Shown here one piece after another: positions 3,591 to 24,040 of a stretch of 24,040 bases of DNA. How positions within the stretch are numbered: position 1 is the stretch's first letter; every line of letters begins with the position of its first letter. A program made the translations under genes and the position numbers. Below the pieces are notes generated by a model. It did no database searches. It was not told the origin of the DNA and was given only the letters and a program-made list of their open reading frames with translations. Source of the stretch: a virus (Duplodnaviria; Heunggongvirae; Uroviricota; Caudoviricetes); the IMG/VR virus record IMGVR_UViG_2740892439_000001, positions 1 through 24,040 of that record. One strand, given 5' to 3'.

Positions 3591-5060
3591 ATGGCACGAA
3601 ACAAGCAATCCTCTCAGCGAACGGCACAGGCCACCGCTGACGGCTACGAGAACTTCGTCGCCCGCGTTGGGATGCAGACGCCTAACCAGCATTCAGCATC
3701 GACCTACCGGGCGAACTTCACCAGCCGCAACCGCATGCTGGTGGAATGGTCATATCGCGGTTCGTGGGTTATCGGTGAAGCGGTCGACGCTATCCCGGAC
3801 GATATGACCCGAAAGGGCATTCGCATCACTTCGGAGATTGACGCCAAAGACCGTGGCACCCTCGAAGCGCAACTGGATGAGTTGCAGATCTGGGATGCGC
3901 TGAACGACGTGCTGAAATGGTCGCGTCTCTACGGCGGCGCGGTCGGCTTCATCATGATCGAGGGGCAAGCACCAATGACCCCGCTGCGACTCGAAACCAT
4001 TGGCGAGGGCAAGTTTAAGGGCATTCTCCCGCTCGACCGCTGGATGATTAACCCGGTGCTGACACGCCGCATTAAAGAGATGGGGCCGGACCTCGGCAAG
4101 CCTGAGTTTTACGACGTGGTGACCACCGCAACGGGCATTCCGGCCTGGCGCATCCATCACAGCCGCCTGATCCGCTTTGATGGCGTCACGCTGCCATTCC
4201 AGCAGAAGATGACCGAAAACGAATGGGGAATGTCGGTTGTAGAGCGTATCTGGGATCGGCTTACTGCGTTCGATAGCGCTACTGTCGGCGCGGCGCAGCT
4301 GGTCTATAAAGCGCATCTGCGTACCTATAGCGTGGAGAAGTTGCGCGAGCTTATCGCGCTTGGAGGCCCGGCGTTCGAAGCGTTGCTGAAGAACATCGAC
4401 CTGATCCGCCAGTTCCAGAGCAATGAAGGTATGACGCTCATGGACTCGCGGGATAAGTTCGAAACCCACCAGTACAGCTTTAGTGGTCTGGATGACATTC
4501 TTTCGCAGTTTGCTGAGCAGATCAGCGGTGCCGTTGGTATCCCGCTGGTACGCCTGTTCGGTCAATCCCCGAAAGGCTTCTCTACTGGTGATGCAGACCT
4601 CGCCAACTATTACGACCGGGTGAGCTCATTGCAGGAGCGCCGCTTACGGCTGCCGATGCGCCGGATACTGGACATTATGCACCGCTCGGAACTCGGAAAG
4701 CCGCTGCCGGACGATTTCACGTTTGAGTTTAACCCGCTATGGCAAATGTCAGACGTTGACCGATCAACGGTGGCCGTAAACACCACCAACGCGATCAGTA
4801 CCGCGCTGGGCGACGGATTGATGACGCGTAAGGCGGCGATGACCGACCTGCGCGAAAACTCTGACGTCACCGGCATCGGGGCATCCATTACCGACGAGGA
4901 TATCGAGAATGCCGAAGACGAAGCGCCGCCAGGCATCGGCGAACTTGGCGACAAACCGCCAGAGCCGCCAGGCGGAGATCCGATATCGAACGAGCCTACG
5001 GCAGATAGCGCGGGCGGTCGGGGATATCGTAAATGGTCGCTACGATGGTTCAAACGATAG
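3591..5060 (+). CDS. Portal protein
   Basis: 489 aa, sits between terminase and head-morphogenesis genes, acidic C-terminal tail; recalled as the DUF1073-type portal. The exact 3' end is uncertain because all three forward frames are open over 4843-5003. Confidence 0.75.
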   Translation: MARNKQSSQRTAQATADGYENFVARVGMQTPNQHSASTYRANFTSRNRMLVEWSYRGSWVIGEAVDAIPDDMTRKGIRITSEIDAKDRGTLEAQLDELQIWDALNDVLKWSRLYGGAVGFIMIEGQAPMTPLRLETIGEGKFKGILPLDRWMINPVLTRRIKEMGPDLGKPEFYDVVTTATGIPAWRIHHSRLIRFDGVTLPFQQKMTENEWGMSVVERIWDRLTAFDSATVGAAQLVYKAHLRTYSVEKLRELIALGGPAFEALLKNIDLIRQFQSNEGMTLMDSRDKFETHQYSFSGLDDILSQFAEQISGAVGIPLVRLFGQSPKGFSTGDADLANYYDRVSSLQERRLRLPMRRILDIMHRSELGKPLPDDFTFEFNPLWQMSDVDRSTVAVNTTNAISTALGDGLMTRKAAMTDLRENSDVTGIGASITDEDIENAEDEAPPGIGELGDKPPEPPGGDPISNEPTADSAGGRGYRKWSLRWFKR

Positions 5061-5696: not shown

Positions 5697-6929
5697 ATGA
5701 AATATTTTTTCAATACCCGGCTGGGGGAAACCCGTTATCAGCTGGCTGACGGCTCGCTGCTGTGCAAAGACGTGCCGATAGGTCGAACGGGTAAGCAGCT
5801 TTACGGCGCTGCCGATCTGCCAAACCTCAAACCCGACAAGCTCGGCGAGATAGTCGTAACGCGCTCTCCTGATCAGGTATTCCATCCGGCCACGCTCGCC
5901 TCATTCGAAGGGATGAGCATCACGATCCTGCATCCTGAAGATGAAAACGGGAATGTGCGGCTGGTCAACCCCGAGAACTGGAAAGAGCTTGCGGTCGGGC
6001 ATCTTCAGAACGTTCGGCGCGGGACTGGTGATCAGTCTGATTTGATGCTGGCTGACCTTATCGTCAAAGACGAAAGCGCCATTCAGCTGATCGAAGATGG
6101 TCTGCGCGAAGTGTCGTGCGGCTATGACGCTGAGTACGAGCAGACCGAACCCGGAAAAGCCGAGCAGGTCGATATTACCGGAAACCATGTGGCTCTTGTC
6201 CCTAAAGGCAGAGCCGGAAATCGTTGTGCAATTGGAGACAGAGACACAATGGCAAATCAAAAGAAAAGCTGGTGGACCCGCATGCGCACGGCCATCAAAA
6301 CGGGTGATGCTGACACCATGAACGAACTGCTGGACTCTGCGCCAGCGGCGGTAACGGGCGATGAAGGGGATCTGCCGAGCGGCGTTAACCTCAACATTAA
6401 TCTTTCACCGCAACAACCATTGCCGGACAAAAAGCCGGAAATGGGCGGAGAGCCAACCGGCGACGGCGAGGACGATATCAAAACCTTGCTCAAAGCCCTG
6501 CTGGCTAAGCTGGAAGGTACTGCAACGGGCGATAACGACGATAAGCCTGACGGCAAAGATAACAAAGACCCTACCGGCGACGGTGAGGACGACGAAGAGG
6601 AAACCACGATTACCGGTGACGCTGCTTATCGTGCCGAAGTTATCGTTCCGGGTATCGATCTGAGCCGTAAGGTGAAACCGACCGCGTTCAAACGTGATGT
6701 GCTGTCCGCCGCTGACAAAACACTGGTTCGCCAGGTTGTCGGTGATGCAGATATCCGCAAATTGCCCAAGCAATCGGTAGATATGGCGTTTAACGCCGTG
6801 TCAGAGATTGCCAAAGGGCGAAACACCCGCAGCACCACGGGCGATGCACAACGTCCAAATATGGGCATGACCAGCATCGCTTCCCTGAACAAACAAAACG
6901 CCGACTTCTGGTCTAACCGCAAAGGATAA
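5697..6929 (+). CDS. Scaffold / prohead protease-like protein (DUF2213-like) with an acidic low-complexity linker
   Basis: 410 aa; position between morphogenesis and capsid genes; Asp/Glu/Gly-rich central region with a repeated PTGDGEDD motif. Confidence 0.55.
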   Translation: MKYFFNTRLGETRYQLADGSLLCKDVPIGRTGKQLYGAADLPNLKPDKLGEIVVTRSPDQVFHPATLASFEGMSITILHPEDENGNVRLVNPENWKELAVGHLQNVRRGTGDQSDLMLADLIVKDESAIQLIEDGLREVSCGYDAEYEQTEPGKAEQVDITGNHVALVPKGRAGNRCAIGDRDTMANQKKSWWTRMRTAIKTGDADTMNELLDSAPAAVTGDEGDLPSGVNLNINLSPQQPLPDKKPEMGGEPTGDGEDDIKTLLKALLAKLEGTATGDNDDKPDGKDNKDPTGDGEDDEEETTITGDAAYRAEVIVPGIDLSRKVKPTAFKRDVLSAADKTLVRQVVGDADIRKLPKQSVDMAFNAVSEIAKGRNTRSTTGDAQRPNMGMTSIASLNKQNADFWSNRKG

Positions 6930-8431: not shown

Positions 8432-8821
8432 ATGGCGAAAGAAAAGCTGGTTACCATCCATGTTCACACCCCGTTTACGCTGACGCTCGGCGATCAGTCA
8501 AAACAGGAGTTTGGCCGGGGACGGCATAACGTACCGGAAGAGGTTGCGTCGCACTGGTTCACCCAGGCGCACTCTGAGCTTTCCGAAAGCGTGATTAGCG
8601 ACACCGATGATCTGCAACCCATTATCGACAGCCTGCAAGCACAGATTGCCGACAAAGATAAGCAGATTGTCGATAAAGATCAGCTGATTGCCGATCTGAA
8701 AGAAGCGCTGCTCAAGCTGCAAGAGCAGAACGACAGCCTGCAAGCGCAGATTGCTGCCGCCCAGACTGGCGGTAATGGGGCGAAAGATGCCAAAGAATCA
8801 AAGCCTGCCAACAGTAAGTGA
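8432..8821 (+). CDS. Hypothetical coiled-coil protein
   Basis: 129 aa; aggaaa SD; C-terminal heptad-like region with a repeated DSLQAQIA motif. Confidence 0.55.
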
Positions 8822-16869: not shown

Positions 16870-17400
16870 TTGAATAAGAAAGCCATTTTTATTGCAATAA
16901 GTTTACTTGTTCCGATGTCGGGATTAGCCGCTCCTGGGAAGTATGAAAAAATGGCTGTTGATTTAATGGATCAGCAAAAGTTTACGCAGTGGCAACATTA
17001 CGCCTCTGCTACTCCTTTTTTCGCTATGAATGGTCGCAGATTCGCCATGACCATTGATGATTTCGCGGATATAGTCAGCAACTCCTTTCAAGAATGCGAA
17101 GATCTGGATGCCTACACCAATCGGAAAGGAACTACGGATGATTGTAAGTCCTATGTTTACAAAGGCATAAAGGAGTGGGTAAACCTCTCTCAAGATAAGT
17201 CTGTTAGCGATACAGCATGGAAAATGGGCCAGCGCTATGCTTCAACACACGTAATCCTATTGCCCATAAAAACGCATGGGATTTCAATGGGATGGCGGCC
17301 GGTATTCGCGTTGCTAAATCTCAAGGTTATTAAGTCATGGATGCGCCGAAAATCATCGGATCTTTCCCGTGTAAAAAAGTGGCTGGGCGATGATTTTTGA
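16870..17400 (+). CDS. Accessory secreted protein with N-terminal signal peptide (function unknown)
   Basis: TTG start with a ggtgggga SD 6 nt upstream; N-terminus (M)NKKAIFIAISLLVPMSGLAAPG is a typical Sec signal; mature part has two Cys; about 33 percent GC in the first 60 nt versus about 70 percent in sampled structural-gene sequence. Confidence 0.55.
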   Translation: MNKKAIFIAISLLVPMSGLAAPGKYEKMAVDLMDQQKFTQWQHYASATPFFAMNGRRFAMTIDDFADIVSNSFQECEDLDAYTNRKGTTDDCKSYVYKGIKEWVNLSQDKSVSDTAWKMGQRYASTHVILLPIKTHGISMGWRPVFALLNLKVIKSWMRRKSSDLSRVKKWLGDDF

Positions 17401-17558
17401 CGTCCATAATATTATGGATGAACTGTTGCCAATTGCGCTAATTTTAACAAAATAATACTGGTTAACGCATTTTTTGAACCATCTGTACACAGTAGTTGTC
17501 TATACTTTACCTTAAAGGTAAACTCTGCGCTCCACTGATGTTCACTATGGGAGGGGAT
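17401..17558 (+). promoter_or_regulatory. AT-rich intergenic region with promoter-like hexamers and two palindromes (17404-17417 and 17506-17522)
   Basis: ccataatattatgg is a perfect 14-bp palindrome; tttacctt-a-aaggtaaa has perfect 8-bp arms. Candidate sigma70 elements: ttgtct (17496-17501), 17-nt spacer, taaact (17519-17524). gggagggg SD precedes the ATG at 17559. Confidence 0.4.
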
Positions 17559-17798
17559 ATGAGGGAAATCGTTAATCGTTACTTAGCCGCTGCCGGTAGT
17601 GTTATGGACATTATGCCGACTACAGATTACTGGCAATATGCTGCTTCTGGATCTGATTGTCGGGCAATAAGAAGTGATGTTAAAGTCATTGCAAGTGACA
17701 TGAACAGAGTTATCAGGTATGAGTTCAAAACCCCGCAAGCAGGCGGCCGTTCTCAAAAAGCGTCAGGAAAACAAAGCGTCGCAAAAAGCCGTTCCTGA
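17559..17798 (+). CDS. Small hypothetical protein (accessory cassette)
   Basis: ATG at 17559 with a strong SD; about 80 aa; the last ~27 codons overlap the next gene and look low-complexity, so the true 3' end is uncertain. Confidence 0.4.
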   Translation: MREIVNRYLAAAGSVMDIMPTTDYWQYAASGSDCRAIRSDVKVIASDMNRVIRYEFKTPQAGGRSQKASGKQSVAKSRS

Positions 17799-18291
17799 TT
17801 CGGATGGTATCGACGAAAATATTGATTCCTCGGAATATGATGAGTCTCAGGAAGTAGTGGAAAAGCTGTCTGCAGTTGCCAACCTTGATCCTGAGCTAAA
17901 ATCGAAGTTAACACCTGAACTTCTTGAGAGAGTTTCTAAGAATCCGAAGGTTATTGCCATGTTTCAGCAGGAGTCTTTTCAGGGACCACTCCCACCTCCT
18001 GCTATGCTCTTACAATATAATCAAATATTACCCGGCGGCGCTGAGAGAATTTTCAGGCTAACCGAAAAAGAGCAAGAGCATAGGCATAAGACGCAAAGCG
18101 ATGCATTACTTGGTGCGGTTTCACGCGACAAACGTGGGCAATGGATGGGATTTTGCATTGCAATGGTAGTGCTTATAATGGCTGCGTTTTTTGCTAATCG
18201 CGGTAACACTTGGTTCGCAGGTACTCTTGCTACTTTAGATCTCGTAGGATTAACTACAGTGTTTGTTTATGGTAGGAAGAAACCTAAATAA
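17719..18291 (+). CDS. DUF2335-like membrane protein (charged N-terminal domain plus two C-terminal transmembrane helices)
   Basis: 190 aa; motif GPLPPPAMLLQYNQILPGGAERIFRLTEKEQEHRH recalled as the DUF2335 signature; hydrophobic stretches WMGFCIAMVVLIMAAFFA and WFAGTLATLDLVGLTTVFVY; followed by a terminator. Confidence 0.6.
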   Translation: MSSKPRKQAAVLKKRQENKASQKAVPDSDGIDENIDSSEYDESQEVVEKLSAVANLDPELKSKLTPELLERVSKNPKVIAMFQQESFQGPLPPPAMLLQYNQILPGGAERIFRLTEKEQEHRHKTQSDALLGAVSRDKRGQWMGFCIAMVVLIMAAFFANRGNTWFAGTLATLDLVGLTTVFVYGRKKPK

Positions 18292-18306
18292 TCCATACAT
18301 CCTTTC

Positions 18307-18329
18307 AAACCCGCTTCGGCGGGTTTTTT
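18307..18329 (+). terminator. Strong rho-independent terminator
   Basis: aaacccgc-ttcg-gcgggttt stem-loop followed by a T-run, 16 nt after the stop of the DUF2335-like gene. Confidence 0.75.
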
Positions 18330-18348
18330 GCTTTCTGGAGCCTACTAA

Positions 18349-19103
18349 ATGGCAGTATCTGACCAGACCCGCAGCGGCGACCTTGCCGAAACATTCAAAT
18401 CTGAACGGGAAACAACAAAGAACCAGATCCGAGTCGCTTTGCCTGGCATCGTCCAGTCATTCGATCCTGACGCTGTGACGGCGGTTGTGCAGCTTCTATC
18501 CGTTCGGTTGAAACGGATAACGACGGCAATCGCGTTACCAAAAATTACCCGCTGCTGGTGGATGTGCCGGTGGTATTCCCGCGCGGCGGAGGCTGTACGT
18601 TGACTTTTCCGGTAAAAGCTGGGGATGAGTGTCTTGTCGTTTTTGCCGATCGTTGTATTGATTTCTGGTGGCAGAGCGGCGGGATACAGGAGACGATTGA
18701 TAACAGAATGCATGATTTATCGGATGCGTTCTGTATCGTCGGTCCGCAGTCTCTGGCGCAGAAAATCAGCGGAATCAGCACCAGCGCCGCGCAACTGCGT
18801 ACTGATGATGGCGCTGCGTTTGTGGAAGTGGCCGCAGGCCATAACATCACGGTTAAAACCCCCGGCGCGCTGACGGCGACAGCAGAAGGAGGAACCACGA
18901 TCACATCACCCACCATCACGCTAAACGGCAACGTGACAATAAACGGGAATCTCTCTCAGGGGATGGGCGAAAGCGGCGGCACCGCGACGATGCTTGGCCC
19001 TGTCACGGTGACTAACGATGTAAAAGCTGGTGGTAAGAGCCTGATGACGCACACGCACGGCGGAGTACAGACCGGCGGCGGTAACACAGGAGCGCCTAAC
19101 TGA
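18349..19103 (+). CDS. Baseplate central spike protein (gp138 / Mu gp45 / P2 gpV-like), interrupted by an apparent 1-nt indel near 18493-18497
   Basis: N-terminal ...IRVALPGIVQSFDPDAVTAVVQ (frame 1) and YPLLVDVPVVFPRGGGCTLTFPVKAGDECLVVFADRCIDFWW (frame 0) together form one OB-fold spike domain; Gly/Thr-rich beta-helix-like C-terminus; ggag SD before the ATG at 18349. Confidence 0.7.
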
Positions 19104-21422: not shown

Positions 21423-22291
21423 TGGCGACTAACGATTTTAAACCCTTCGCTACTGGTAGCGGGGCAAACGTATTATCACAGGCTGATTATGAAGCGCTAT
21501 CTGTACTGGCATCTGGTTTTCTTTCCGGCAAAGCCTCGTCAGCACAAGTAAATAAAGCACTACGGCAATCCTCTACAATTGCTGCCGTCCTTGCACAATT
21601 CATGGCGGATAGCACAGGAAGCGATGTCCTGGATAATGGGAACATTGCCACGTTACTAAATATTCTCAAGTCCGCACTTAATAATCAGGCAGAAGGACGC
21701 CTGCTCCGCATTCAGGTTTTTACCGCTAGCGGAGCATGGGTAAAAACTGCTGGCACTAAAAAAGTCAGAATTAAAGCATGGGGTGCAGGCGGTGGGGGTA
21801 AGGGAACAGACGTCGCAGGGACTGGTGCACCTAGTGGGGCGGGTGGTGCATATGTTGAGGGATTATATGACGTAAGCACCATTAATGGGGCGAATATCGT
21901 TATTGGCGCTGGTGGCGCGGCAGTTGCAGCAGGGAATGCAGGGGATGGCGGTGATGGGGGAGACACTACCATTACCGCGTTGGGTATCTCTGCTGGCGGT
22001 GGTAAGGGGGGAAAGTCTGCTGGTAATTCTGCTGGCGGAATTCCGGGAGCTCCATCTGTTGGGACAATATTCTCAGTGGCTGGTCAGGGAGGACAGGGAG
22101 GATCAGGTGTAAGCCTGGGTGGTGTAGGTGGCGCATCGCACAGTAGTTATGGTGGCCTTCCACACGTTAGTTCATCCGGTGATGATGGATTTTTCCCTGG
22201 TGGAGGTGGTGCTGGCGCATCATATGACTCAATCGCCAGGGCATCAGGGAAGGGCGCTAACGGCTATGTCATCATTGAGGAGTACGCATAA
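21422..22291 (+). CDS. Tail fiber protein with glycine-rich C-terminal domain
   Basis: Start at ATG 21422 (MATNDFKPFATGSGANVLSQADYEAL is a typical tail fiber N-terminus); residues ~120-280 are mostly Gly/Ala/Ser. Confidence 0.65.
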   Translation: MATNDFKPFATGSGANVLSQADYEALSVLASGFLSGKASSAQVNKALRQSSTIAAVLAQFMADSTGSDVLDNGNIATLLNILKSALNNQAEGRLLRIQVFTASGAWVKTAGTKKVRIKAWGAGGGGKGTDVAGTGAPSGAGGAYVEGLYDVSTINGANIVIGAGGAAVAAGNAGDGGDGGDTTITALGISAGGGKGGKSAGNSAGGIPGAPSVGTIFSVAGQGGQGGSGVSLGGVGGASHSSYGGLPHVSSSGDDGFFPGGGGAGASYDSIARASGKGANGYVIIEEYA

Positions 22292-22488
22292 TGGCAGGTA
22301 ATTACGCAGTCATTGAAAGTGGAATAGTTAAAAACATCATAATTGCGGAAAGCGGTTATGAATATGATGGTGCTGAACTTATCGAATATCCTGAAAGTGT
22401 ATTTTGCCAGCCTGGGATGTTTTATAACAAGGCAGACGGGCTATTTTACGATGATAAAGAATATTCAAAAATAAATAGCAAGAATTAA
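22291..22488 (+). CDS. Small hypothetical protein downstream of the tail fiber (possible fiber assembly/accessory factor)
   Basis: 65 aa, TAATG coupling, AT-rich. Confidence 0.4.
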   Translation: MAGNYAVIESGIVKNIIIAESGYEYDGAELIEYPESVFCQPGMFYNKADGLFYDDKEYSKINSKN

Positions 22489-22512
22489 GTCACTAAATTA
22501 CCAGAAAGCAAA

Positions 22513-22534
22513 CTGACCTTATGGTCGGTTTTTT
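22513..22534 (+). terminator. Putative intrinsic terminator
   Basis: ctgacc-ttat-ggtcgg stem (6 bp with one G-U) followed by ttttttatt. Confidence 0.45.
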
Positions 22535-22546
22535 ATTGGGGCGACC

Positions 22547-24040
22547 ATGAGTGAATACGATACCGGCAATCCTGTGCCGTCTGCATCCATGCCTGATGCA
22601 TGGGATAATATGCAGTCTATTGACAAGTTCGTTAATAGCAGTGATGAAACCATTACCACACGCACAGGCAAACAGTTAGATACTTTGCATGGCGTTAATG
22701 TTAAAGCGGACAACCAGCTAACGCAGCAGCAAGCAGATTTTGAAACCTCGCAAGAAGAAAGGGATGCTGTAGTTGAGGAAACCAGGCAGAACCTGATCCC
22801 TCTCAGCCGGCAGTACATGACGCTGGCGGCGGCACAGGCAGATATTGCTAATATACCTGTTAATTCGTTCACATATGTGCGGGATCAGTCTGGTGATGCT
22901 CTGGCGTTAGAGTACAAAAACGTAGAGGGCACTTTAACGGCTACTGGTCGTAAAATGCCATCACAGCAATCTGTAGATGATGTTTATGCTTTCATAGCTG
23001 ATAACGATATATTGTCTCCTGGTAGAAATATTTATAATTATCGTAAATCAATTGATGGCAAATACCTTAATGAACAGGGTGTTATAAGTGACAACCCGAT
23101 ATATTTCCTTTCTGATTACATGATGGTAAGTCCTGCAATGCAGGTGGCATCAAATTACAACTTGAGATTTGTACACTTTTTCGATGAACAGAATAACCTA
23201 CTAAGCTATTTAACTTTTGTCACGCAGTTTACAACACCATCAAACGCTCGTTATATACGTATCACTGGAGGAATTGACTCCAAAACCCTTTTGCAAATAG
23301 AGGCAGGGCCATTAAAAACCGCGTTTAAATATTATCGTAAATATATTTCTGAAACTCTCCCTGATGGAACTCCAGTTTCAGCAAAAAAAATAATGGGAGT
23401 AACTCCTGGGAAAAACAAGTTTAACAAGGCAACAGCAACGCAGGGATACGCAATTAATGAAAATGGAGAGCTAATCGTTGCCTCAACTTACTTTGTCTCA
23501 GACTACATTAAAGTCACTGCCGGCGGAACATTGAGGCCTTCCCAGCCAGCGCGATATATTAACTTTTATGATGCCAATAAAACATGGCTGTCGTCTCTCC
23601 AGAATCAAAATGGGGCGTTCGCAGTGCCTTCCTCTGCGGCATATCTTCGCATTTCAGTGCTGCTTGCGAGAATCGATTACTTCCAGATTGAGGTTGGAAG
23701 TAAGATGACAGCCTACGAGCCTTACTCACTCACGGCAGCAACTTCGCTTGACGGTGATGGGTTAAAGTATCCGGTGAATGAGCCAGATATCTATAGTATT
23801 GGCCTGTTCAATGCTGGAAAGAATATTTATAACCCCTATACACTGACCGCTGGTTATATCGATGAGAATGGTTTTGTTGTTCCGGGTGGAACGACATATA
23901 AATTTTCTGACTATCTTCCAGTTAAAGCATCAACGGGGTATGTAGGAAATAAAAGCATGCGCTTCATAAACATTTATGATGCGGATAAAGCGTTTATTTC
24001 GACTCTTACCAGCACGACAACATTCACAACCCCGTCTAAT
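22547..24040 (+). CDS. Distal tail fiber / receptor-binding-like protein, 3'-truncated by the window end, with tandem ~130-aa repeats
   Basis: Hand translation from ATG 22547 is open to 24040 (498 codons); absent from the ORF track, which appears to list only ORFs with an in-window stop. About 37 percent GC in a sampled 60-nt stretch. Repeats start near 23057, 23444 and 23849. Confidence 0.6.
   Translation, partial: MSEYDTGNPVPSASMPDAWDNMQSIDKFVNSSDETITTRTGKQLDTLHGVNVKADNQLTQQQADFETSQEERDAVVEETRQNLIPLSRQYMTLAAAQADIANIPVNSFTYVRDQSGDALALEYKNVEGTLTATGRKMPSQQSVDDVYAFIADNDILSPGRNIYNYRKSIDGKYLNEQGVISDNPIYFLSDYMMVSPAMQVASNYNLRFVHFFDEQNNLLSYLTFVTQFTTPSNARYIRITGGIDSKTLLQIEAGPLKTAFKYYRKYISETLPDGTPVSAKKIMGVTPGKNKFNKATATQGYAINENGELIVASTYFVSDYIKVTAGGTLRPSQPARYINFYDANKTWLSSLQNQNGAFAVPSSAAYLRISVLLARIDYFQIEVGSKMTAYEPYSLTAATSLDGDGLKYPVNEPDIYSIGLFNAGKNIYNPYTLTAGYIDENGFVVPGGTTYKFSDYLPVKASTGYVGNKSMRFINIYDADKAFISTLTSTTTFTTPSN

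What the first reader, a model, noticed from the sequence alone, without database searches (positions are those of the whole stretch)
22547..24040. Distal tail fiber / receptor-binding gene with tandem ~130-aa repeats and foreign composition
The 3'-truncated ORF has an N-terminal anchor-like region followed by at least three repeats sharing GY(I/L)(N/D)E(N/Q)G ... SDY(M/I/L)xV ... RF(V/I)x(F/I)(F/Y)D ... TP(S/N) ... Y(I/L)RI and a linker motif G(R/K)NIYN(Y/P), starting near 23057, 23444 and 23849. A sampled 60-nt stretch is about 37 percent GC, and the gene follows a terminator, suggesting a horizontally exchanged host-range module, possibly with carbohydrate-binding domains. I did not recognise the repeat family.
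Basis: seen in the sequence. Interest (0 to 1): 0.55.

Follow-up and report, generated by a model that had tools for sequence, protein, structure and literature searches.

The report
Esterase tail fibre with sugar-binding-like repeats
The gene is the first half of a prophage tail fibre with three copies of a sugar-binding-like domain, which in its close relatives ends in an enzyme that strips acetyl groups from bacterial surface sugars; this kind of host-recognition protein is already known, so the find is real but fairly ordinary.

Summary
ORF 22547 to beyond 24040 (498 codons, cut by the window end) has a non-repeated N-terminus (aa 1-156) and three ~130-aa repeats (aa 157-285, 286-421, 422-498; Smith-Waterman z 15-21). 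Its GC is 42% against 52.5% for the rest of the window. A hairpin plus T-run lies just upstream.

It is the last, exchangeable receptor-binding gene of a SEN34-like temperate myovirus. All E. coli prophage matches stop at 22854-22859 (codon ~104), and other E. coli prophages carry other distal modules after that point.

Orthologues (P0011, 909 aa, Klebsiella; L007/L002; L001) show exactly three repeats followed by a C-terminal SGNH/GDSL esterase with intact catalytic blocks. The esterase model best matches the peptidoglycan O-acetylesterase Ape1.

Most likely function: a fibre that binds and de-O-acetylates capsule or O-antigen, like G7C gp63.1 and the Klebsiella prophage SGNH fibres published in 2026. 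It is a new member of a known kind. The uncurated repeat family is the only moderately novel part.

The parts
22291..22488 (+). 65-aa ORF that always precedes the variable fibre gene in related prophages. Function unknown; possibly a fibre chaperone or assembly factor.
   Evidence: phrog_18617, E 1e-29. The same small ORF sits before the SGNH, TolB-family and other variants in L003, L004, L015 and L016.
22510..22537 (+). Intrinsic-terminator-like hairpin (9-bp stem, 4-nt loop) plus T-run, directly upstream of the fibre gene.
   Evidence: Pattern scan. Folding gives -12 kcal/mol, z -3.6. Klebsiella phage P18-100 has a different stem sequence (CCGGCATATGCCGG + T7, -14.3 kcal/mol) at the same position, so the structure is conserved rather than the sequence.
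22547..24040 (+). 3'-truncated ORF (498 codons) for a receptor-binding tail fibre. Full length is inferred to be ~910-925 aa.
   Evidence: Translation. Full-length orthologues are P0011 (909 aa) and the L007 fused product (893 aa).
22547..22858 (+). N-terminal virion-attachment adaptor (aa 1-104), ending in the conserved junction ...RQNLIPLSRQYMTLAAAQADIANIP.
   Evidence: 97-98% nt identity to E. coli prophages. All 579 E. coli matches stop at 22854-22859. Hits PHROG tail-fibre families phrog_17635 and 4201.
22859..23014 (+). Neck segment (aa 105-156), a separately exchanged module between adaptor and repeats.
   Evidence: 96-98% aa identity to P0011 and P0005, but only 67-69% to L007 and P0001. 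Hits phrog_38670 and 4201, 'tail fiber protein'.
23015..23401 (+). Repeat 1 (aa 157-285), a beta-sandwich CBM-like domain. It is the variable copy.
   Evidence: 97% identical to L007 R1 but only 64% to R1 of P0001 and P0011, whose R2 and R3 are 90-99% identical to the window's.
23383..23390 (+). A8 homopolymer in the R1-R2 linker. Relatives L002 and L007 have A7, which splits the gene there (stop and restart in TAATG).
   Evidence: Gene calls in L002 and L007.
23402..23809 (+). Repeat 2 (aa 286-421). This is the copy that was modelled.
   Evidence: AlphaFold2 on aa 283-423 with a 74-sequence alignment: mean pLDDT 90.7, ~98 over the 110-residue core, 9 strands plus one short helix.
23810..24040 (+). 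Repeat 3 (aa 422-498), cut by the window end after ...TFTTPSN.
   Evidence: i-Evalue 1.5e-25, profile positions 2-79. It is completed in P0006, P0011 and L007 (...AAYVRVTLALANISGFQLEEGS...), after which the SGNH module follows.

Best explanation
The ORF encodes the N-terminal ~54% of a ~910-925-aa receptor-binding side fibre of a SEN34-like temperate myovirus.

Shown here: an N-terminal adaptor (aa 1-104) shared with sister prophages; a neck (aa 105-156); and three tandem ~130-aa beta-sandwich domains. The modules have been exchanged separately between phages.

Inferred from orthologues that are 97-99% identical to the window protein over R2/R3 (L007) or overlap its last 92 nt at 97.8% (L001): the protein continues beyond 24040 into an Ape1-like SGNH/GDSL O-acetylesterase with intact Ser/Gly/Asn/His blocks.

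Inferred mechanism: the fibre hangs from the baseplate. The three CBM-like domains hold on to an O-acetylated surface polysaccharide (capsule or O-antigen) and give reach and avidity. The distal esterase removes O-acetyl groups without cutting the backbone. This lets the virion recognise the glycan layer and work its way down through it to the outer membrane, as described for G7C gp63.1 and proposed for Klebsiella prophage SGNH fibres. Swapping the distal cassette at the QADIANIP junction retargets the phage.
For: Context: the gene follows sheath, tape measure, hub, wedge, baseplate J, DUF2612 and a glycine-rich fibre gene. The backbone is 96.7% identical to E. coli prophages up to nt 22854.

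Modularity: E. coli relatives carry an SGNH protein without these repeats, or a TolB-family protein, after the same adaptor. Breakpoints fall at domain boundaries.

Continuation beyond the window: P0006 starts with the window's last 30 aa and carries PF13472. L001 overlaps 23949-24040 at 97.8% nt identity. L007/L002 match 22783-24040 at 91% nt identity, with 99% aa identity in R2 and R3. P0011 has three repeats followed by Lipase_GDSL_2 at 50.5 bits, above the 32.9-bit cutoff.

Catalytic blocks: GDS, GxSG, GTND and DxxHP are conserved across 19 homologues.

Esterase fold: model pLDDT 83; top Foldseek hits are Ape1 (4k3u, E 5e-18, TM 0.64-0.77) and C. jejuni Ape1 (8gkd), followed by CE2 esterases.

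Coupling of repeat and esterase: 34 of the 48 best-scoring relatives carry Lipase_GDSL_2, one carries Polysacc_deac_1 and one SASA. All five isolated phages checked (S9a, KpV522, Mydo, Sebago, BUCT541) have 1-4 repeats plus a C-terminal SGNH domain, behind different anchors.

Precedent: SGNH fibres of Klebsiella prophages hydrolyse pNPA (PMC13123978). G7C gp63.1 deacetylates O-antigen, and that activity is needed for infection (PMC10743462).
Against: The esterase part is not in the window, so its presence in this particular gene is an inference.

The best structural match of the esterase is a peptidoglycan esterase, not a capsule or O-antigen esterase.

A terminator-like hairpin directly upstream, low GC and a position near the prophage end are also typical of morons.

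Oligomeric state and virion incorporation were not tested.
Confidence: 0.75

Rival explanations
1. The gene is the same esterase fibre, but the three repeats are only a structural shaft. They act as spacer beads that set the reach and flexibility of the distal esterase and do not bind glycan themselves.
For: Copy number varies from 1 to 9 among relatives while the esterase stays constant, as expected for a length-setting spacer. The conserved residues are mostly core-type (alternating hydrophobic residues in strands, Gly, Pro). Similarity to true CBMs is weak.
Against: All the nearest structural neighbours are carbohydrate-binding or glycoprotein-handling beta-sandwiches. R1 exists as two alleles at 64% identity in proteins that are otherwise 90-99% identical, which looks more like a specificity element than an inert spacer. 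The domain almost always travels with carbohydrate esterases.
Confidence: 0.3
2. The gene is a moron or lysogenic-conversion gene rather than a virion part. In this reading the lysogen expresses a cell-associated esterase that remodels its own surface glycans and blocks other phages.
For: It follows a terminator-like hairpin, has GC ~10 points below the backbone, and in relatives is among the last genes before host DNA. An Acyl_transf_3 gene sits next to the orthologue in L002 and L007.
Against: There is no room for a promoter between the hairpin and the ATG, and no promoter signal above chance nearby. The N-terminus is hydrophilic and has no signal peptide (read by eye; no signal-peptide predictor was run). 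The N-terminal adaptor and neck hit tail-fibre PHROGs and are shared with RBPs of lytic phages. Relatives with the same repeats carry BppU_N or Tail_spike_N virion anchors.
Confidence: 0.05
3. The esterase acts on O-acetylated peptidoglycan, like Ape1, to help the tail lysozyme during penetration rather than acting on capsule or O-antigen. This follows the 'endolysin-like' reading given for the S9a protein in PMC9989827.
For: The best structural matches are the peptidoglycan O-acetylesterases 4k3u and 8gkd. Relatives occur in phages of Staphylococcus and Proteus. That these hosts O-acetylate their peptidoglycan is from my own knowledge, not tested here.
Against: Sequence identity to Ape1 is only 13-16%. 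The domain sits at the distal end of a long fibre outside the outer membrane. E. coli and Klebsiella are not known to O-acetylate their peptidoglycan (established knowledge, not tested here). Klebsiella prophage SGNH fibres associate with capsule type (PMC13123978).
Confidence: 0.07

Closest known systems
SGNH-domain tail fibres of Klebsiella prophages (164_08-KL2 and 174_38-KL55; Otwinowska et al., PLoS Biol 2026, PMC13123978)
   Same: Both are temperate-phage tail fibres with a C-terminal SGNH esterase. They are proposed to deacetylate capsule instead of depolymerising it. The orthologue cluster of this gene (P0011) lies in the K. pneumoniae complex and is annotated 'SGNH/GDSL hydrolase family protein'.
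   Different: No sequence comparison with the two tested proteins was possible, because their sequences are not in the held supplements. That paper does not describe tandem beta-sandwich repeats. Here the adaptor is of the E. coli prophage type.
E. coli phage G7C tailspike gp63.1 (O-antigen deacetylase)
   Same: A virion-borne SGNH esterase that removes O-acetyl groups from the receptor polysaccharide without cutting it. Its esterase module can be swapped for other enzymatic modules behind a conserved N-terminus (PMC10743462).
   Different: G7C is an N4-like podovirus with a tailspike, whereas this is a myovirus fibre. gp63.1 was not among the 50 best-scoring Foldseek hits listed for the esterase model. 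No evidence was found that it carries this repeat, and it was not tested directly.
Klebsiella phage S9a RBP UTQ79038.1, and the Webervirus KpV522, Mydovirus Mydo gp249, Staphylococcus phage Sebago gp007 and Klebsiella phage BUCT541 fibres
   Same: Same cassette of 1-4 copies of this repeat followed by a C-terminal Lipase_GDSL_2 domain. Identity to the window repeats is 25-40%.
   Different: The N-terminal anchors differ (BppU_N, Tail_spike_N, others), as do copy numbers and hosts, which include Gram-positives. None has been characterised biochemically. The S9a paper noted only the SGNH domain (PMC9989827).
Peptidoglycan O-acetylesterase Ape1 (N. meningitidis 4K3U; C. jejuni 8GKD)
   Same: The whole two-domain architecture of the inferred C-terminal module matches: an SGNH core with a beta-sandwich inserted after block I. 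Foldseek E 5e-18, TM 0.64-0.77 over ~390 columns.
   Different: 13-16% sequence identity. Ape1 is a periplasmic housekeeping enzyme acting on MurNAc O-acetyl groups. It is not a virion protein and has no tandem repeats.
CBM-type beta-sandwiches (Asp3/Gap3 of the accessory Sec system; porphyran-binding CBM 8XMZ; CBM4-2, CBM32, CBM22, CBM61)
   Same: Same general jelly-roll-like beta-sandwich of ~110 residues. These are the nearest solved folds to repeat 2.
Tail protein of Parabacteroides phage PD491P1 (PDB 9WWC chain B)
   Same: It is the only solved chain that the repeat profile detects by sequence (E 1.2e-6, profile positions 13-91 against residues 15-99), and it shares the YIPV / YD.NK / P.NA.YVRV motifs.

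Membership tests
Phage receptor-binding tail fibre or tailspike with exchangeable distal module | Encoded in the tail or baseplate morphogenesis module | tested here: met
   It follows sheath, tape measure, hub, wedge, baseplate J, DUF2612 and a glycine-rich fibre gene on the same strand.
Phage receptor-binding tail fibre or tailspike with exchangeable distal module | Conserved N-terminal adaptor joined to divergent distal parts in sister phages | tested here: met
   Nt 22547-22858 are ~97% identical to E. coli prophages, whose distal parts are SGNH+CBM, TolB-family or other proteins. All matches end at 22854-22859.
Phage receptor-binding tail fibre or tailspike with exchangeable distal module | Physical presence in the virion, and trimeric assembly | not testable with these tools
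   Needs virion proteomics, cryo-EM, or multimer modelling with experimental support.
SGNH/GDSL carbohydrate esterase RBPs (G7C gp63.1 and Klebsiella prophage SGNH fibre class) | SGNH domain with catalytic blocks I (GDS), II (G), III (GxND) and V (DxxH) | tested here: inconclusive
   The window ends before this region. Orthologues that are 97-99% identical to the window protein over R2/R3 (L007) or overlap its last 92 nt at 97.8% (L001; P0006 begins with its last 30 aa) carry PF13472 above the gathering score, with all four blocks conserved. The feature is met in the orthologues and inferred for this gene.
SGNH/GDSL carbohydrate esterase RBPs (G7C gp63.1 and Klebsiella prophage SGNH fibre class) | Acetyl-esterase activity on the receptor polysaccharide that is required for infection | not testable with these tools
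   Needs pNPA assays, NMR of treated CPS or OPS, and active-site mutants.
Carbohydrate-binding modules (galactose-binding-domain-like beta-sandwich) | Compact beta-sandwich or jelly-roll fold of ~100-150 residues | tested here: met
Carbohydrate-binding modules (galactose-binding-domain-like beta-sandwich) | Sequence membership of a curated CBM or Pfam family | tested here: not met
   Pfam gives 0 hits at E <= 10 on the window protein and NCBIfam gives 0. Among 48 relatives there was only one weak F5_F8_type_C hit (E 5.7e-4) and one weak Sec-ASP3 hit (E 6.4e-4).
Carbohydrate-binding modules (galactose-binding-domain-like beta-sandwich) | Demonstrated glycan binding | not testable with these tools
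   Needs binding assays with isolated repeats.
Beta-helix (pectin-lyase-like) tailspike depolymerases | Right-handed parallel beta-helix catalytic domain | tested here: not met
   No Pfam beta-helix or pectate-lyase hit in the window protein or in P0011. The modelled parts are a beta-sandwich and an SGNH alpha/beta fold.
Ape1-type O-acetylesterases | SGNH core with a beta-sandwich inserted between blocks I and II | tested here: met
   This was tested on the orthologue P0006. The model has beta-strands at residues ~114-232 between GDS (residues 53-55) and GxSG (~233-236). Foldseek TM to 4k3u and 8gkd is 0.64-0.77. This is a match at fold level only, with 13-16% identity.

The most novel reading that the evidence does not exclude
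The ~130-aa repeat would be a new carbohydrate-binding module family, not yet curated, that is specialised for O-acetylated surface polysaccharides and co-evolves as a cassette with SGNH, CE4 or SASA esterases in phage fibres of Gram-negative, Gram-positive and Bacteroidota hosts. It would act as a processivity clamp for 'glycan-shaving' entry. Exchangeable copies such as R1 (two alleles at 64% identity) would tune specificity, and the A8/A7 tract between R1 and R2 could switch between a single-chain and a two-chain fibre.
Probability: 0.2. Interest if true: 0.55.

Novelty: new member of a known kind. Interest (0 to 1): 0.35.

Why it matters
Esterase-bearing fibres are emerging as a main way for temperate enterobacterial phages to recognise capsule or O-antigen without depolymerising it. 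Acetylation state affects serotyping, vaccine epitopes and phage-therapy host range.

This locus shows domain-by-domain mosaicism: an E. coli-type adaptor joined to a distal cassette best known from Klebsiella, with a sharp junction at QADIANIP.

It also points to a very large unnamed domain family (more than 14,000 representative proteins) tightly linked to carbohydrate esterases. Curating and testing that family would improve RBP annotation. The gene itself fits an already described class, so no open question is settled here.

Tried and rejected
- Self-BLASTP gave only the identity hit. Off-diagonal HSPs were probably suppressed because they lie inside the full-length self-match, so I used Smith-Waterman with shuffles instead.
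- TRF and the DNA repeat search found no DNA-level tandem repeat. A recent duplication is therefore rejected.
- Pfam, NCBIfam and a PDB sequence search with the protein gave nothing useful.
- The word-indexed protein search with the repeat alignment found only 6 proteins. The exhaustive representative search was needed.
- The genome-contig scan found no relative.
- Distant blastn of the repeat region against complete E. coli genomes found no match.
- hhalign of the repeat profile against the esterase alignment matched only repeat copies in the N-terminal extensions of some rows, not the esterase's inserted beta-sandwich. The idea that the repeats are duplicates of that insert is not supported.
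- The supplements of PMC13123978 hold no sequences, so there was no direct comparison with the assayed fibres.
- No paper was found for PDB 9WWC.
- The depolymerase (beta-helix) reading is rejected.

Full report
**1. The observation**

The ORF starts at ATG 22547 and is still open at the window end (498 codons). I cut the protein into an N-terminal part (aa 1-155) and three candidate repeats and ran Smith-Waterman with 500 shuffles. R1/R2, R1/R3 and R2/R3 score 140, 110 and 103, against a shuffle mean of ~28 and sd ~5 (z 21, 17, 15). The N-terminal part scores at chance against each repeat.

A profile built mostly from other proteins' copies places the domains at aa 157-285, 286-412 (envelope) and 422-498.

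The so-called linker motif G(R/K)NIYN is in fact the first strand of the domain and contains the family's one invariant residue, an Asn.

At DNA level there is no tandem repeat. Only a 48-nt patch at 71% identity lies in register, so the duplication is old.

GC is 42.2% for the gene and 40.7% after nt 22860, against 52.5% for the rest of the window.

A 9-bp hairpin plus T-run (22510-22537) ends ~10 nt before the ATG. A related Klebsiella phage has a different stem sequence at the same spot. That argues the structure is functional.

**2. Context**

The window is the late region of a SEN34-like temperate myovirus: terminase, portal, sheath, tape measure, hub, wedge, baseplate J, DUF2612, a glycine-rich fibre and a 65-aa ORF, followed by this gene.

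Of 5,426 complete E. coli genomes, 579 carry a related prophage. The best is 96.7% identical over nt 1989-22854, and the listed matches that reach the fibre gene end at 22854-22859, which is codon ~104 of the gene, just after ...AAAQADIANIP.

After the same adaptor, E. coli prophages carry an SGNH protein of different architecture, a TolB-family protein, or a degraded gene. None of these contains the repeat.

The repeat region has no blastn match in any complete E. coli genome.

**3. Mosaic structure**

I compared the window protein with its relatives segment by segment.

| Segment | Closest relative | More distant relatives |
|---|---|---|
| aa 1-104 | E. coli prophage type (~97% nt) | 55-67% to the relatives compared (34% to the distant P0016) |
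| aa 105-156 | P0011, P0005 (96-98%) | L007, P0001 (67-69%) |
| R1 | L007 (97%) | P0001, P0011 (64%) |
| R2 and R3 | 90-99% to L007, P0001 and P0011 | 39-51% to the distant P0016 |

Exchange has therefore occurred at each domain boundary. R1 exists as two distinct alleles in otherwise near-identical proteins.

**4. What lies beyond the window**

- P0006 (K. pneumoniae, N-terminally partial) begins with the window's last 30 residues and continues through the rest of R3 into a PF13472 domain.
- Its contig L001 overlaps nt 23949-24040 at 97.8%.
- L002 and L007 are the same gut siphovirus recovered from two datasets. They match nt 22783-24040 at 91% identity and encode the same continuation.
- P0011 (909 aa) is the representative of a cluster annotated 'SGNH/GDSL hydrolase family protein' in K. 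pneumoniae, K. variicola and K. quasipneumoniae. It has exactly three repeats followed by the esterase.

I infer, at about 0.9, that the window gene has the same C-terminus.

**5. The repeat family**

No Pfam, NCBIfam or PDB sequence match exists for the window protein. An exhaustive profile search of 1.84 billion representatives finds 14,642 proteins at E <= 1e-3 and 5,299 at E <= 1e-10. Among the 150 best-scoring hits listed, proteins carry 1-9 matched copies, most often 2-4, with a period of ~130-140 aa.

Of the 48 best-scoring relatives, 34 carry Lipase_GDSL_2, one carries a CE4 deacetylase domain and one a SASA esterase domain.

All five isolated phages I checked pair 1-4 repeats with a C-terminal SGNH domain: Klebsiella S9a, KpV522 and BUCT541, Proteus Mydo, and Staphylococcus Sebago. 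Their anchors differ (BppU_N, Tail_spike_N, others).

The only solved chain the profile detects by sequence is 9WWC_B (E 1.2e-6). I traced it to Parabacteroides phage PD491P1.

**6. The esterase**

An alignment of 19 homologues shows conserved GDS, GxSG, GTND and DxxHP blocks. The model (pLDDT 83) is an SGNH core with a beta-sandwich inserted after block I. Its best matches are the peptidoglycan O-acetylesterases Ape1 of N. meningitidis and C. jejuni (E 5e-18 to 3e-16, TM 0.64-0.77), followed by CE2 acetyl esterases. This fits a carbohydrate O-acetylesterase.

**7. Mechanism and rivals**

The best reading is a baseplate-attached fibre whose CBM-like repeats engage an O-acetylated capsule or O-antigen and whose distal esterase strips the acetyl groups. 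This matches G7C gp63.1 (PMC10743462) and the Klebsiella prophage SGNH fibres shown to hydrolyse pNPA (PMC13123978).

Shown here: the repeats, the modular exchange, the folds, and the catalytic motifs in orthologues. Inferred: the C-terminus of this copy, glycan binding, the substrate, and virion incorporation.

Rivals:

- The repeats are an inert shaft (0.3).
- The gene is a moron or conversion enzyme (0.05). Against this: a hydrophilic N-terminus with no signal peptide by eye (no predictor was run), tail-fibre adaptors, and no promoter.
- The esterase is a peptidoglycan esterase (0.07). This is unlikely for a distal fibre on enterobacteria.

**8. Known or new**

SGNH-esterase RBPs are an established class (PMC13123978; bioRxiv 10.64898/2026.05.12.724579). 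Full-length orthologues are already deposited with a generic name. The S9a homologue was noted in print, but only for its SGNH domain (PMC9989827).

The papers I read do not describe the tandem repeat family or its tight link to esterases across very different phages. I therefore rate the gene a new member of a known kind, with modest interest.

**9. Dead ends**

These are listed under Tried and rejected.

Noticed in passing
window 23383-23390; L002 ~8750-8760; L007 ~6453-6463: An A8 run lies in the R1-R2 linker. The otherwise 91%-identical gene in siphovirus contigs L002 and L007 (two datasets, 99.98% identical to each other) has A7. That creates a stop and an overlapping restart (TAATG), giving a 252-aa anchor+R1 protein and a 641-aa R2-R3-SGNH protein. 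Klebsiella orthologues have no A-run here (…SARNVMGV…). It could be slippage-prone or merely incidental.
   Followed up: partly
L002 10881-11882; L007 8584-9585: A 333-aa Acyl_transf_3 (O-acetyltransferase-type) gene lies ~200 nt downstream of the esterase-fibre orthologue. One phage therefore carries both an acetyl-removing fibre and a likely glycan-acetylating conversion gene. L001 (Klebsiella) has three small ORFs there instead. What follows in the window's own genome is unknown.
   Followed up: no
window 22510-22537; L015 ~3716-3745: The terminator-like hairpin before the fibre gene keeps its position and T-run in Klebsiella phage P18-100, but with a completely different stem sequence. There is no space for a promoter before the ATG, so the fibre gene must be expressed by read-through or antitermination.
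   Followed up: partly
window 17000-18500 (ORF 17719-18291): A low-GC island (43-47%) inside the baseplate cluster encodes a phrog_3996 'moron' membrane protein. E. coli relatives carry a YafO toxin, DUF4236 or DUF4282 gene at the same slot, so this is a second variable cargo site.
   Followed up: no
window 23015-23401 compared with P0001 and P0011: Repeat 1 occurs as two alleles (64% identity) in proteins whose repeats 2 and 3 are 90-99% identical. The neck (aa 105-156) also assorts independently. Recombination therefore acts at single-domain resolution.
   Followed up: partly
L016 3799-6777 (E. coli strain 98219): In this E. coli prophage the equivalent fibre gene is decayed. It has a pseudogene N-terminal fragment, ~2 kb of unannotated sequence, and then a 158-aa SGNH remnant.
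   Followed up: no
PDB 9WWC chain B = Parabacteroides phage PD491P1 (OP172815.1, 13217-13471): A solved 'Tail protein' of a Bacteroidota phage starts with a domain weakly related to the repeat (E 1.2e-6). This extends the family's host range. No publication was found.
   Followed up: partly
window 22519-22872, minus strand: A 117-aa GTG-started antisense ORF overlaps the start of the fibre gene. There is no supporting evidence and it is probably spurious.
   Followed up: no
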